Positions 18,001 through 30,000 of a DNA stretch of 64,000 nucleotides are shown piece after piece (positions within the stretch are counted from its first letter, which is position 1; the number at the start of each line of letters is the position of its first letter). The stretch comes from Laetmonice hystrix. Taxonomy: Eukaryota. The position numbers are program-made. The stretch is from contig OZ249443.1 of the NCBI GenBank assembly GCA_965235115.1, forward strand, positions 3,658,001-3,722,000, given 5' to 3'.

Positions 18001-21000
18001 NNNNNNNNNNNNNNNNNNNNNNNNNNNNNNNNNNNNNNNNNNNNNNNNNNNNNNNNNNNNNNNNNNNNNNNNNNNNNNNNNNNNNNNNNNNNNNNNNNNN
18101 NNNNNNNNNNNNNNNNNNNNACGAACGGACGGACGGACGGCCGGACGAACGAACGAACGGACGGCCTTCATTGTTAGGCGTGGATCGGCGGCAGCCACGT
18201 GGATGGTGAGGTGTAAAAAAACGTGACTGAGCCAGTCTGTACCTGCATGATCAGGCTCCATCTGTTGACTGTGTGAAAGGTAGCAAAGCGGCTTAGATCT
18301 CCCCCATGATTGGCCGAGCTGGTCATGTCGATCTACCGGTGGGATTTAATCAAAAGGAGATTTCCTCACTACCGTCTCCGCGCCCAACCACAGATACAGC
18401 GCCCTCTGTGGGCACGCAGTTTGACGGTGACGTCACAAATATTGTGACGTACCGACGTTGTGGCATCACAAGTGGAGTGGAGTTCTAGATTATTTCGAGT
18501 CTGCCATATATGAAGATATTCAGTGCCTTTTCCAAGTAGCAAAAAATATAATGTATGTCTATTCCACGGGCTCATTTTACTCATGTCAACGCTAATTATT
18601 TCATTTCTTCAAAATTCAAAGACAAAATAAAGACTGAAGAGACGCCGCCATTGGATCAGGACTAAATAGGATTTTATAGGCGCGCCCCGCCGTTTCAGTT
18701 TTTTCGTCGTTATTTCAGTCGATTTTGCTTTGTTAAGGACCTTACTGATATATTCACACAGGCAAAGTGAGGCTATTGTTGTCGGAAGATATGGTAGCGA
18801 GAAATGGAATGATTGTGTACACGCCTTCTGTCCAGACGTCTAGGCACCGCTTTTCTATTATGTGACGCCACGTAAAGAGGAGAGAGATTGTCAGAATATC
18901 TGCACTTGATTTTCTCTCCCAGGCCCCAGTAATATTGTATAGCCGGCCCCAGAATGAGGACTTAGGTTTTAGTCTCGGTTTGTATCATAATTAGTCCGAG
19001 ATCTCAGTATGAAGCTGTCCCTGCCAGCCGGGAGAGTAACCGCCTTCTACGGTAACTGACAGTTGTGTGAGGCTAGACATTGTGTATGGCTTGATTCTGA
19101 CTTGGTAATTACCATGTCAGTCATACGACACACTCCAGGACGGCGGTTCGATAAAGGTGACACAATGTTTATTTTAATCTTACATAAGATAAGATCAAAA
19201 CGTCACGTAATGACAGTCCCCTTTTTGAACTTCACTCGCCCTCTTAAAGTATCATTACTGGACGTATTCGACCTAATTAATAAAGGCACAGAACTTCAGA
19301 CACTTCAGAGATTTGTGAGGGATAGGAAATTTATTGTTGATAGGGTAATGAAAATTGTCTCGGCAAATGTTACCGATAGCAAGTGTACAAAGGGACTGGA
19401 CTGGAACTACCTGTTGTTGCTGTCTTGACATCGGTTTCTGACTCCAAATTTGTTTTATTATAACACGTACGCTTATTATGTGAGAACGCGTCGGTCGGAA
19501 ACCTCGAGTATTTCATGTCCGAGCGCAAAATTCAGATTAATAATTTATTTTCATTGACAGTTATGATGCTACGATTTATCTGTTATTATTAGATGTACTA
19601 ATCTATAATAACACTAATATGAACATATATAAGGTTGGCTGCCCAGCCTAGGTGTGTTATATCAGTAACTAATTACAGGGCCCTTTTAATATTTTAGACT
19701 ATTGGTATTAAACGTTTGTCGTCGGCTGTAAGATAAATCGGTCCCAGGCCCGCCTGCCGTCACGGCCCTCCCACCGGAAGTAGGCCGCCTGGCGGTGATT
19801 ACAGTGCGCCTGCGTGAATTATGGACGCCGCACTAACGACGACGTTTATCTCGGTACTCGTGGGTACCGGTTGGGGGGCGGGGGGGGGAGGTCCACGACC
19901 AGGACTTCCTCCGGTCTACGAATAGACCTCCTACTCTAGGGCCTGGACGTATACTGACTGTTGTCCTACCCACGACGACGGTATAGTGGCGGTACAAAAC
20001 TGACCGGTGTTTTACATGACCTCTGAACTTTCACCCCTGGATTCATGACCTTTGTACCTCATTAGAACTTGACCTCTACCTGAGCCACAAAAAACACTCA
20101 GTGTTGGTTGAAATGACCTGAATACGGGTTTTGGTTACGGGAGTAATTGCCGTTACAGACATAGCCTACATTGGGATCTGTACCGGAGGGGCAAAACTAG
20201 CCTGACTAAACCATAGGCGAAAAATCAAGAATGGAAATTATCTCCCTAAATATATCGTAACATCGCTTGTATATCACTGGGAAATATATTTGAAGTGATT
20301 CAGGTTTAGATCGATCGGTTAATTTTTTCGACGGCCGGTGTTAAATGCTAGGAGAATTTTTATTGTACAGGGTACTACAGGGTATTAAAAACTTTGAAGC
20401 CTTTCTCTACATTTTTGGGACGACTCGCTATGGGTCTCGACCATCAGCTGTTACCCACATTAAAATCTGACAATTGTGAATTCCAAATATTATAATTTGC
20501 AAGGAAACCCCCAAATGGCCCTCTGACCTTGCATTGGCCACCAATGTCAATGAGTCAACCAACAATCCTTCTCATTGGCCACCAATGTCAATGAGTCAAC
20601 CAACAATCCTTCTCATTGGCCACCAATGTCAATGAGTCAACCAACAATCATCCCCGATATTACCACTAACGCCACCTGTTGGAACACATTCCTGCTTCAA
20701 CATTAAATCTACCAATTATTAGTAGCCCTTCATTATTAGGACACTTTTCACGGTTCAGCAATCATGGTAGGCTTATTGCGCAGGCCAAAAAAATCGCGCA
20801 AAGCCAGCGTTTATCTCTGTTTATTTGTTGCTCAGCTCTGATATCTCAGTTTATTTGTTGCTCAGCCCTGATCCTGTTTATCTCAGTTTATTTGTTGCTC
20901 AGCCCTGATCCTGTTTATCTCAGTTTATTTGTTGCTCAGCCCTGATCCTGTTTATCTCAGTTTATTTGTTGCTCAGCCCTGATCCTGTTTATCGCTGTTT

Positions 21001-27000: not shown

Positions 27001-30000
27001 TGCTGGGCCGAGTGGCAACATTGCAAGGTCAGAGGGCCATTTGGGGGTTTCCTTGCAAATTATAATATTTGGAATGCACAATTGTCAGATTTTAATGTGG
27101 GTAACAGCTGATGGTCGAGACCCATAGCGAGTCGTCCCAAAAATGTAGAGAAAGGCTTCAAAGTTTTTAATACCCTGTAGTACCCTGTACAATAAAAATT
27201 CTCCTAGCATTTAGTTTTTTTTATTTAGGGTTTGCCCATTATAACCTAGAGATGTGATAGCCATGATTTTGTGCAACACAAGATATGAAAAAGATGGCCT
27301 GCTATGGTTCTTAGTCCATCAGTTTTATTATTGATTTTTACCTGAGAAGAAACAATTTAAGAGAAAACAAAGCTCTTCAAGATAATATGAGATTATTGTG
27401 ATCCCCTGGGGTTGCTATAGGCAATTCATTTTCCAAACAAGGCATTGATAGATTGCCTTTTAAAACTGTCAAATACAGGCAAATGGAAAGCAAACACTAT
27501 CCTTCCTGTTTGCATAGAAATGAAAATGATCCATATCATGGAACAACTAGCGCTTCACAGGATGATCATAACTAATATCTTCTCTACCTGTCCGATAGGA
27601 GGCGCTTCCTGGTGATATCCTCTCAGTAACATGTACCGATATCCCTTTCCAATCCCATACATTGGCGTAATTCTCTTCCCATGGCGTATTGCAGACATTC
27701 ATTGTGGCTAACGTGCCGTGTGTCTGATAATGTCTCGTAAATCTACCAGCAATCAGAGAATCTTGGCGTCGTAGAACCTGAAACCTAGGATGCTGAAACT
27801 CATTACTTCTACAATAACCGTCTTGGCGGAAGAACACAGGACGCGATTTTTTATTCTGTTCCATCATTTTGCACTTTGAAGGGTTCCTGATAGATCAGGA
27901 TTGGATAGCCCATAGATTTAAAGGCGGTGAATCTTCCAAGGGAACTCATCATTTAATGGAGTTTGTGTTAGATTGGGCTTGAAACGCGCACCTCTGCGTC
28001 GAGTTTACTTCACTGGAATTTTCTTGTTATCAGAGTTTATACAGGTATAGGAAACATTGGGGTAAGATAGGAGAATGATAAAATATTTATGACTAAAGAT
28101 ATAATATCTTTGGGTAGGATAGGAAAATGATAAAATATCTATGAATAAAGATATAATATCTGTGGGTAAGATAGGAGAATGATAAAATATCTATGACTAA
28201 AGATATAATATCTGTGGGTAAGATAGGAATATGATAAAATATCTATGACTAAAGATATAATATCTTTGGGTAGGATAGGAAAATGATAAAATATCTGTGA
28301 CTAAAGATATAATATCTTTGGGTAGGATAGGAAAATGATAAAATATCTGTGACTAAAGATATAATATCTTTGGGTAGGATAGGAGAATGACAAAATATCT
28401 ATGACTAAAGATATAATATCTGTGGGTAGGATAGGAATATGATAAAATATCTATGAATAAAGATATAATATCTGTGGGTATATAGGAATATTATAAAATA
28501 TCTATTAATAAAGATATAGTATCTGTGGGTAAGATAGGAATATGATAAAATATCTATGAATAAAGATATAATATCTGTGGGTAAGATAGGATAAAATATC
28601 TATTAATAAAGATATAATATCTGTGGGTAGAAACCTTTCGTAATTCAGGTGTGACTTGTATCTTCTAAGCAAGACTTGGTTCACCGCGGATAGGCCAGGT
28701 CTTGAGCTGGATTTTAAAAGGTTAGGACTTGAAAGATGGAAACGTGACAGTGGCCGTCAGATGCCTGCAGCAGCTAATGATATTGTGTACATAACCTTTA
28801 GTTTTCTGAGGTAAATGGAACTGATTGTGTCGATAACCGCAGCCCAGACTATATTGATTCAAGAATACCAGTTGTATTTTTCTAAATATTGGCTGAATAC
28901 AGAGGACATGTTCTCTTCATGAGATTCCCCATTGGGCCTGTTTTGCTAATTTGACCTGAAAAGAGGATATAGCAATGTTGAGATAAAGTTGCCGCATAAG
29001 ATAATAATAAAACAATATTCTGCTCCGTTCCTGAAATAGGGCTTGTACTTATAGTCCACAGTAACCGTGTTTCGGAGGTCAGAGATCCTATCGAGCGTTA
29101 TTTGATTGAATATGAAATCCTGGCAACCCAAGATAAAAACAACTCTGTGGCTTCCAGCACATAAAAAGCGATAAACTCTGGTATCTTTCCTTGGATTTGA
29201 TCGCCCATCAGCGAACCTCGGACAGCGGAGACTGTCCATGGTAACAACTCGGCGAAATCTCATGGTGACAACTAAACATGAGTCATGCGGAACGTTACCG
29301 GAGACCAGAACGTAATCTGAGCCTCTGATCGCGGCCTCCAGACCTCACCAAAACCTCTACACGTAACCTTACCACTAACCCTGCCCCATACTGAGCCTCT
29401 GATCGCGGTCTCCAGACCTCACCAAAACCTCTACACGTAACCTTGCCACTAACCCTGCCCCATACTGAGCCTGTGATCGCGGCCTCCAGACCTCACCAAA
29501 ACCTCTACACGTAACCTTACCACTAACCCTGCCCCATGCCCCCATTGGTGGGGAAATTACCATGGTGACTGACCGAGGACGGTACGTCAATATTGTGACT
29601 GGCGTCAGCGTTTGGAACGCCATCTCCGTCAGTTATCAGTCTACCGCCAGGGGGCTCTGTGAGTGGTCCAGGTAATGAACATTTGGTCTGAGTGTCGAGG
29701 TGAACGGGACAGACTTACTGCCTGTATCCGTGGTTACCATTAGAACGACGACGTGATGGCGACCCAACAAAAATCCCAACCGACTCAGCGTGTCGGAATT
29801 CTGCACCAAACAAACTAGTCACTTTACCGAGGAGGCTATTGTTCAAGGTGTCAGGCGACACGACAGAAATGTTTTAACGATACCTGTCGCCTTACCGAGG
29901 TCCAAGGTGTCGGGCGACATGACAGAAATATTTTAAAGATACCTGTCCAAGGTGTCGGGCGACAGGACAGAAATGTTTTAAAGATACCTGTCGCCTTACC

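What the first reader, a model, noticed from the sequence alone, without database searches (positions are those of the whole stretch)
20342..27213. 6.87-kb segment bracketed by 192-bp inverted repeats that capture an exon-like ORF
Seen: 20342-20533 and 27022-27213 are 191/192 reverse-complementary, share both end points and have TA at both outer ends. The arm contains a doubled TACAGGGTA resembling a Tc1/mariner end. The interior has no transposase but holds four minisatellites and the best candidate exon (26525-27026), whose putative donor GCAAG|GTCAGA lies 5 nt inside the right arm. Inference: a young Pack-type or foldback element carrying host sequence, a staggered-break inversion with duplicated breakpoints, or an inverted copy of an intron start. 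It could also mediate recurrent inversion or a long RNA hairpin.
Basis: partly seen in the sequence, partly recalled or inferred. Interest (0 to 1): 0.66.

Follow-up and report, generated by a model that had tools for sequence, protein, structure and literature searches.

The report
Inverted 192-bp copy of a gene's exon end
Two nearly identical 192-base stretches in opposite orientation bracket 6.5 kb that holds a small conserved gene, and they look like a recent local copy of the end of that gene's coding exon, not the ends of a jumping element.

Summary
20342-20533 and 27022-27213 are reverse complements at 191 of 192 positions, with sharp ends on both sides and no third copy in the window.

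The "exon-like ORF" is a real gene piece. From ATG 26591 it encodes 145-146 residues of an unnamed family of small proteins (12 hits, best E 9e-50). Similarity to relatives stops exactly at Arg146 (AGG, 27026-27028). What follows that Arg in relatives fits a conserved AG|GT..G splice donor.

So the right arm is native gene sequence: the last 6 nt of the exon plus the next 186 nt. The left arm is an inverted copy 6.5 kb upstream.

Nothing supports a transposon. There is no target-site duplication beyond chance and no transposase domain. The CAGGGT motif lies 24 nt inside the arm, and the minisatellites are window-wide background (43%).

Best reading (confidence 0.5): a young, local, DNA-level inverted duplication. 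It arose either as a templated insertion or as the duplicated breakpoint of a 6.5-kb micro-inversion.

Genome-wide copy number, read support and the orthologous locus could not be checked. A dispersed repeat or an assembly error therefore remains possible.

The parts
20342..20533 (.). Left arm: inverted copy of the right arm (191 of 192)
27022..27213 (+). Right arm: last 6 nt of the coding exon plus the next 186 nt. I take this as the native copy.
20366..20385 (+). Doubled 10-nt motif TACAGGGTA(C/T), 24 nt inside the outer end. Its mirror copy lies in the right arm.
26591..27027 (+). Coding exon of a small conserved protein (Met1 to the first two bases of the Arg146 codon). GC 0.61, GC3 0.70.
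27026..27034 (+). Candidate 5' splice site AG|GTCAGAG (break between 27027 and 27028), inside the right arm. The same 9-mer also occurs at 26539-26547.
   Evidence: sequence; residues after the terminal Arg in relatives
27022..27059 (+). Short hairpin-forming repeat TTGCAAGG-N22-CCTTGCAA at the inner end of the arm
   Evidence: sequence
27191..27227 (+). AATAAA inside the arm, 17 nt before its outer end, followed just outside the arm by G(T)8-rich sequence. This is a poly(A)-site-like layout that straddles the outer junction.
20532..20649 (.). 41-nt minisatellite x2.9 abutting the left arm
20811..23589 (.). 37-nt minisatellite, about 79 copies
24596..24796 (.). 52-nt minisatellite x3.8
26081..26245 (.). 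52-nt minisatellite x3.2
26046..26664 (+). Cluster of TGACGTC (CRE-like) motifs around the gene start. 4 of the window's 13 matches lie here, including one full palindrome at 26046-26053.

Best explanation
The two arms are a young, local, DNA-level inverted duplication of otherwise unique gene sequence.

The right arm is the native copy. It runs without a break from the last two codons of a small conserved protein-coding exon, through a conserved AG|GT donor, into the following 186 nt. The left arm is a copy placed 6.5 kb upstream in the opposite orientation. I see two routes and cannot separate them.
(b) A 192-bp templated insertion, made by a template switch or by break repair that copied a nearby stretch. 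I slightly prefer this route.
(a) A 6.5-kb micro-inversion made by staggered breaks whose fill-in duplicated the 192 bp at both ends.

Shown: the repeat, its sharp ends, the reality of the gene, the end of protein homology 6 nt inside the arm, and the absence of transposon hallmarks in the window. Inferred: which arm is the original, the mechanism, the youth of the event (1 difference in 192), and that it is most likely neutral.

One consequence holds whatever the origin. The pair can support recombination that flips the promoter-plus-exon segment. Because the donor lies inside the repeat, either orientation would keep the exon end and donor intact.
For: (1) The repeat is 191 of 192 with abrupt loss of similarity at all four junctions. 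This fits one recent event, not an old decaying duplication.

(2) The window holds only these two copies. blastn with word size 7 gives 2 significant hits, and the other 8 have E >= 1.4.

(3) The ORF is a real gene.
- 12 representatives reach E <= 1e-3, 4 reach <= 1e-10, and the best is P0001 at 9.2e-50.
- 8 proteins reach E <= 1e-3 among 3886 candidates in the profile search.
- tblastn places all 18 relatives on 26585-27124.

(4) BLASTP against P0013 stops at Arg146, which is 27026-27028, inside the arm.

(5) Across 19 family sequences, four groups appear.
- 6 end with Arg then stop.
- 8 read on with a first residue that can have a T-first codon (S, L, Y, W) and a second residue with a G-first codon (E, A, G, D, V). 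This is what ORF callers give when they read through AG|GTnnG.
- 2 more fit if anchored by eye.
- 3 do not fit.

(6) GC3 falls from 0.70 in the exon to 0.375 in the 32 codons that the arm adds.

(7) There is no target-site duplication above background for the whole unit or for either arm alone. There are no TE domains and no tRNA or Rfam match.

(8) A copy only 6.5 kb from its source favours a local DNA mechanism over retroposition (inference).

(9) The size fits inversion-linked duplications in Drosophila: median 321 bp, range 46 bp to about 1.9 kb, and 12 of 18 with only one breakpoint duplicated (PMC1885836, passages read).

(10) Weak support for the right arm being native on its outer side as well.
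- The AATAAA-plus-T-run layout across that junction occurs at only 15 of 127,880 positions in the window.
- The arm's CpG o/e of 0.40 lies nearer the right 300 nt (0.00) than the left 300 nt (0.95).
Against: - No eukaryotic genome, read set or orthologous locus could be searched. The 192-mer could still be a dispersed repeat, and the structure could be an assembly error.
- The duplication starts within 6 nt of the exon end and stops 17 nt after an AATAAA. A random DNA breakpoint model does not predict either coincidence.
- The donor has C at +3 (GTCAGA), which I recall to be uncommon.
- The splice-site inference rests on protein tails, not on DNA of relatives. The anchor residue was chosen by eye for some sequences, and 3 of 19 (P0005, P0010, P0011) do not fit.
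- Junction microhomology is only 0-2 nt, so a template switch is not positively shown.
- Routes (a) and (b) make opposite predictions about where the next exon lies, and no second exon was found.
Confidence: 0.5

Rival explanations
1. The arms are terminal inverted repeats of a non-autonomous DNA transposon (Pack-type) that carries host sequence. Alternatively, they are two independent insertions of a discrete 192-bp dispersed element (MITE- or SINE-like) in opposite orientation.
For: - Both arms share both end points and begin with TA.
- An 8-nt TACAGGGT motif in the arm resembles the terminus of a true TA-flanked MITE at 15006-15251.
- Another element with about 200-nt inverted arms exists at 10314-11180, so long-armed elements occur in this genome.
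- Copy number in the genome could not be tested.
Against: - The TA is part of the palindromic repeat end, so it is not evidence of a duplication.
- No longer flanking direct repeat exceeds background: 3 nt for the unit and 2 nt for each arm, while random pairs reach >=3 nt in 938 of 2000.
- The CAGGGT motif is 24 nt inside the end.
- There is no transposase domain in 11 interior ORFs, no other copy or fragment in 64 kb, and no pol III-type RNA match.
- The right arm's inner 6-10 nt encode the conserved terminal Arg and the donor-like GT..G of the host gene.
- Reading the flank at 27214 onward as the continuation of the exon after removal of the arm gives no Arg-stop or donor (sequence).
Confidence: 0.15
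2. The structure is an assembly artefact. A segment that overlaps its neighbour by about 192 bp was placed in the wrong orientation with the overlap kept at both ends, or two haplotypes were mis-joined.
For: - A mis-oriented piece with an unmerged overlap gives exactly this picture.
- The arms differ at 1 of 192, which an allelic or error difference would also give.
- The window is 43% minisatellite, which is hard to assemble. It holds one run of N at 17856-18120.
Against: - Both arms, the interior and a 2.8-kb minisatellite array lie in one stretch without any N from 18121 to 64000.
- There is no gap at any of the four junctions.
- The poly(A)-like layout across the right outer junction looks like natural sequence.
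Confidence: 0.15
3. The left arm is a 5'-truncated retrocopy of a prematurely polyadenylated transcript of the gene (exon plus 186 nt, ending at the AATAAA site).
For: The arm's outer end lies 17 nt after AATAAA and just before a T-run. This layout is found at only 15 of 127,880 positions in the window.
Against: - There is no poly(A) stretch next to the left arm's corresponding end. The flank there reads ACACCGGCC....
- There is no target-site duplication.
- A random retro-insertion landing 6.5 kb from its parent gene is very unlikely (inference).
Confidence: 0.05

Closest known systems
Inverted duplications at inversion breakpoints made by staggered breaks (Drosophila melanogaster group; Ranz et al. 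2007, PMC1885836; abstract and passages read)
   Same: - Unique, partly genic sequence is present once at each end of a segment, in inverted orientation, with no repetitive element involved.
- The size (192 bp) lies within the reported 46 bp to about 1.9 kb.
- Only one breakpoint region is duplicated, as in 12 of their 18 cases.
   Different: - The segment here is only 6.5 kb. As I recall, the inversions studied in that paper are far larger chromosomal ones.
- The arms are 99.5% identical, against a mean of about 88% there.
- No outgroup shows the uninverted order, so an inversion is not demonstrated.
Templated insertions from polymerase template switching or microhomology-mediated break-induced replication (PMC8421209: search listing and start of abstract only; the rest recalled)
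   Same: A short stretch copied from a nearby template is inserted, possibly inverted, with sharp ends and no target-site duplication.
   Different: - Junction microhomology here is at most 0-2 nt.
- 192 bp copied over 6.5 kb is a plausible case by my recollection, not measured against that literature.
Pack-type transposons (Pack-MULE and similar) and foldback elements (recalled)
   Same: Inverted ends bracket host gene sequence and tandem repeats, with no transposase inside.
   Different: - There is no target-site duplication and no family of copies in the window.
- The arm is not built of sub-repeats.
- One arm is itself native host gene sequence, not a transposon terminus.
Hairpin-RNA (endo-siRNA) loci born from inverted duplications of their target genes (PMC10317233 and PMC10292708: search listing and start of abstracts only)
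   Same: An inverted copy of a piece of a gene lies near that gene. If transcribed as one RNA it would give a 192-bp perfect duplex.
   Different: - The arms are 6.5 kb apart with the gene's own promoter between them.
- The copied piece is mostly non-coding.
- No transcript or small-RNA evidence is available.

Membership tests
Tc1/mariner-type TIR element or MITE | TA target-site duplication immediately outside the terminal inverted repeats | tested here: inconclusive
   TA is present at both outer ends, but it is the palindromic end of the repeat itself and cannot be told from a duplication.
Tc1/mariner-type TIR element or MITE | Conserved terminal motif at the very end of the element | tested here: not met
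   TACAGGGTA lies at 20366-20385, 24 nt inside the end. The window's true MITE has TA|CAGGGTGAGTC at its termini.
Any DNA transposon family (including Pack-type) | Target-site duplication of family-specific length (2-10 bp) flanking the unit | tested here: not met
   The best match is 3 nt with +-3 slack. 938 of 2000 random position pairs do as well or better.
Any DNA transposon family (including Pack-type) | Multiple dispersed copies sharing the same termini, with an autonomous partner | not testable with these tools
   There are 0 further copies in 64 kb. No eukaryotic genome collection was open. Prokaryote contig scans were null.
Foldback elements | Long inverted ends composed of tandem sub-repeats | tested here: not met
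   The arm holds only one doubled 10-mer and no tandem array inside 20342-20531.
Inversion with duplicated breakpoint (staggered breaks) | Inverted copies of otherwise unique sequence at the two ends of the segment | tested here: met
Inversion with duplicated breakpoint (staggered breaks) | An outgroup or allele shows the opposite orientation with a single copy of the duplicated piece | not testable with these tools
   No DNA of relatives was obtainable. Only their proteins were seen.
Templated insertion by template switch | Microhomology between donor and acceptor at the junctions | tested here: inconclusive
   Microhomology is 0 nt at the outer junction. At the inner junction there are 2 nt after one mismatch, then about 5 nt after a 2-nt gap.
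Spliced gene: 5' splice site at 27027|27028 | Conserved exon end with GT..G directly after it in relatives | tested here: inconclusive
   Protein tails fit in 14 of 19 sequences, or 16 with two anchored by eye, and 3 do not fit. No DNA of relatives and no RNA data were available.
Hairpin-RNA locus | Both arms present in one transcript, with small RNAs from the duplex | not testable with these tools
   No expression data were available.

The most novel reading that the evidence does not exclude
The repeat is kept because it works as a switch. Recombination between the arms flips the 6.5-kb promoter-plus-exon cassette. The exon's last codons and its splice donor lie inside the repeat, so the exon leaves the cassette with an intact donor in either orientation and could be spliced to different downstream exons on either flank. 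A weaker variant is that read-through transcription across both arms gives a 192-bp duplex that feeds small RNAs against the gene's own pre-mRNA.
Probability: 0.04. Interest if true: 0.75.

Novelty: new member of a known kind. Interest (0 to 1): 0.3.

Why it matters
If the reading is right, this is a very young example, only 1 change in 192 bp, of how short inverted duplications arise next to genes. It sits at a locus where the copied piece includes a splice donor. Such pairs are the raw material for later recurrent inversion and for hairpin RNAs.

Catching one this early would help tell template switching from staggered-break inversion, once an allele or sister species without it is found. 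In itself it is an ordinary structural variant.

The more useful by-product is the gene. It belongs to an unnamed, conserved family of small, mostly disordered proteins with one long helix and a KSVSF(E/D)D motif, and it has no entry in Pfam, NCBIfam or the PDB.

Tried and rejected
- Naming the protein. Pfam gave 0 families for the window ORF and 0 above cut-off for 10 relatives. NCBIfam gave 0 for 4 proteins. A PDB profile search gave 0 at E <= 1. The ESM Atlas best score was 0.78, below the level of a usable lead. The cluster look-up found 7 clusters, none with a name. The literature search for the motif FSAAGQERR found 0 papers.
- Longer or fused forms of the protein. 619 candidates were examined and none scored.
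- Dispersed copies of the arm. An exact 34-nt piece searched in prokaryote genome contigs gave 0. A protein-guided scan of the same collection matched a pattern in 405 stretches, none a relative. The 41-aa ORF of the arm had no candidate in the protein collection. None of these collections is expected to hold this organism, so the nulls say little.
- The arm as a structured or pol III-type RNA. Rfam gave 0 matches at gathering scores for the whole window. The two sub-threshold matches around the arm had E 1.6 and 3.4. No tRNA was found. The single-strand fold of the arm is no better than shuffles (z -0.15).
- A second, degenerate copy of the gene next to the left arm. tblastn finds only the 34 residues encoded by the arm itself, and blastn of the flanks and interior finds nothing more.
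- The ORF 27547-27894 (minus strand) as a neighbouring gene. It had no Pfam family and no Atlas hit.
- Six-frame Pfam scan of the whole interior.
- Structure. The AlphaFold model has mean pLDDT 56.6 and only helix 40-75 is confident. That is too poor for a fold search, so none was run.
- A literature search for the MITE terminus found 0 papers.
- The reading "single-exon gene, arm = 3' UTR". I considered it seriously because of the AATAAA and T-run. I rank it below the donor reading because of the T-first and G-first pattern after the terminal Arg in relatives. It is not excluded.
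Full report
**What the window is.** It is 64,000 bases with one run of N (17856-18120), which I left alone. 27,356 of 64,000 bases (42.7%) lie in 39 merged tandem arrays of period 9 or more. CpG observed/expected is about 0.75-0.80 overall, with local troughs. The few protein relatives found are unnamed. I take it for a eukaryote, probably an invertebrate animal. That is inference from the minisatellite load and mosaic CpG depletion; no tool named the organism. 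I do not take it for human.

**The observation.** 20342-20533 pairs with 27022-27213 at 191 of 192 positions, with the mismatch at 20479. None of the first ten bases outward pair. Inward, the similarity ends after one mismatch and two matching bases, and a gapped alignment adds only about five more bases. blastn gives E 3e-97 for the second arm, and nothing else in the window is better than E 1.4. The only other long inverted repeats in the window are an 82%-identical pair of 201 nt at 10314-11180 and a 246-bp MITE at 15006-15251. The four interior minisatellites exist, but they cover 47% of the unit against 43% of the window. They are background, not cargo.

**The ORF is a gene.**
- From ATG 26591 the frame encodes a protein whose first 145-146 residues match 12 cluster representatives at E <= 1e-3. 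The best is P0001 (155 aa, 70% identity, E 9.2e-50).
- A profile of 15 sequences recovered 8 proteins at E <= 1e-3 among 3886 candidates.
- All the relatives are small (121-227 aa). They share invariant F62, S63, A65, G66, R69, R70, F73, W78, T80 and a KSVSF(E/D)D motif.
- By recollection that motif resembles the RVxF docking motif of protein phosphatase 1 partners. This was not tested.
- Pfam, NCBIfam, the PDB, the ESM Atlas and a literature search gave no name.
- A model built on the alignment has one confident helix (residues 40-75) and is otherwise low-confidence (mean pLDDT 56.6).
- Four of the window's 13 TGACGTC motifs lie within 26046-26664, which suits a promoter just upstream. This is weak evidence: 4 of 100 shuffles reach 13 matches window-wide.
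- I searched the ORF as one exon only.

**Where the gene meets the arm.** BLASTP against the closest relatives stops at Arg146, the codon AGG at 27026-28, six bases inside the right arm. I tabulated what follows that terminal Arg in 19 family sequences.
- Six end there with a stop: P0006, P0015, P0016, P0007, P0008, P0009.
- Eight read on with S, L, Y or W, which can all have T-first codons, and then E, A, G, D or V, which all have G-first codons: the window, P0001, P0013, P0002, P0003, P0014, P0018, P0012.
- Two more fit if anchored by eye: P0004 and P0017.
- Three do not fit: P0005, P0010, P0011.

This is the pattern expected if ORF callers read through a conserved AG|GTnnG splice donor, since GTAA and GTGA give Arg-stop. 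The same residues are also one-step neighbours of stop codons, so repeated stop loss could explain the first position. It does not explain the G at the fifth position.

The window's donor would be AG|GTCAGA, whose C at +3 I recall to be uncommon. GC3 drops from 0.70 in the exon to 0.375 in the 32 further open codons, so those codons do not look coding. I put the donor reading at roughly two in three.

The alternative is a single-exon gene whose 3' end is the arm. It is kept alive by an AATAAA at 27191, 17 nt before the arm's outer end, followed just outside the arm by a T-run. Only 15 of 127,880 positions in the window have that layout.

**What the arms are not.**
- A transposon reading needs a target-site duplication. 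With +-3 nt slack the best flanking direct repeat is 3 nt for the whole unit and 2 nt for either arm alone, and 938 of 2000 random position pairs reach 3 nt or more.
- The outer TA is part of the palindromic repeat end and proves nothing.
- The TACAGGGTA doublet sits 24 nt inside the end, whereas the genuine MITE in the window carries TA|CAGGGTGAGTC at its termini.
- Ten interior ORFs of 79-124 aa and one of 127 aa hit no Pfam family above its cut-off.
- The arm is not a tRNA- or other Rfam-type RNA and does not fold better than shuffles.
- Most tellingly, the right arm's inner end encodes the conserved Arg and the donor of the host gene, so it cannot be a foreign terminus that landed there.
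- If the arm were an insertion, the sequence after it (27214 onward) should continue the exon. It does not give Arg-stop or a donor.

**What they most likely are.** The left arm is a recent inverted copy of native gene sequence, made locally. A copy 6.5 kb from its source argues against retroposition, and there is no poly(A) or target duplication at the left arm. Two DNA-level routes fit.

In the staggered-break inversion model (PMC1885836, abstract and passages read), fill-in of a staggered break duplicates the sequence between the nicks at both ends of the inverted segment.
- The reported duplications have a median of 321 bp and range from 46 bp to about 1.9 kb, and in 12 of 18 cases only one breakpoint is duplicated.
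- That model makes the left-outer and right-inner junctions ancestral.
- It predicts that the rest of the gene lies on the minus strand left of 20342.

In the templated-insertion model, both junctions of the right arm are ancestral and the next exon lies to the right. Weak hints favour this route.
- A poly(A)-like layout straddles the right outer junction.
- The arm is CpG-poor (o/e 0.40, 3 CpG). The 300 nt to its right has o/e 0.00, and the 300 nt left of the left arm has 0.95.
- An 8-bp hairpin (TTGCAAGG-N22-CCTTGCAA) at the inner end and the T-run at the outer end are plausible stalling points. That is inference only.

Microhomology at the junctions is 0-2 nt, so neither route is shown.

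**What stays open.**
- The two prokaryote scans and the protein search with the arm's 41-aa ORF were null, as expected, and carry little weight.
- An assembly error cannot be excluded, although everything from 18121 to 64000 is free of N.
- It is unexplained why the copy begins within 6 nt of the exon end.
- Supplements of papers were not needed and not requested.

**Verdict.** The finding is best filed as a young local inverted duplication of an exon-end/intron-start piece, either the duplicated breakpoint of a micro-inversion or a templated insertion, with confidence 0.5. It is an ordinary kind of structural change caught early. Interest is 0.3.

Noticed in passing
window 26591-27027 (+): This is a conserved but unnamed family of small proteins (121-227 aa). 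It has an invariant FSxAG..RR..F....W.T core on a predicted long helix and a KSVSF(E/D)D motif near the C-terminus, which by recollection resembles a PP1-docking RVxF motif. It has no Pfam, NCBIfam, PDB or literature match.
   Followed up: partly
window 15006-15251: A 246-bp MITE with 47-nt inverted ends (94%) starting CAGGGTGAGTC and flanked by TA on both sides. It is Tc1/mariner-like by its ends.
   Followed up: partly
window 10314-11180: An 867-bp element with 201-nt inverted arms at 82% identity and a 465-nt unique core. This is an older long-armed inverted-repeat element with no clear target duplication by eye.
   Followed up: no
whole window: 42.7% of the window lies in 39 tandem arrays of period 9 or more. 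Many arrays hold tens of copies with periods of 13-110 nt, an unusually dense minisatellite landscape.
   Followed up: partly
window 26539-26547 and 27026-27034: The 9-mer AGGTCAGAG that contains the candidate donor also occurs 487 nt upstream in the presumed 5' leader, in the same orientation. It may be a second donor-like site or may be chance.
   Followed up: no
window 19872-19891 and 23735-23772: Long G-runs (up to about 30 G with few interruptions) lie in the left flank and in the interior. Similar C/G-rich runs occur at 40422-40493, 47137-47252 and 62124-62464.
   Followed up: no
window 20532-20649: The 41-nt minisatellite abutting the left arm contains the palindrome CATTGG-CCA-CCAATG (two CCAAT boxes). 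The end of its unit (CCTTCTCA) resembles the last bases of the arm (CCTTGCA), so the array may have been seeded at the junction.
   Followed up: no
window 18420-18450: GGTGACGTCAC and GTGACGTAC motifs, together with a CCAAT-like GATTGGCC at about 18309, lie just right of the N run. They look promoter-like, but no gene was identified.
   Followed up: no
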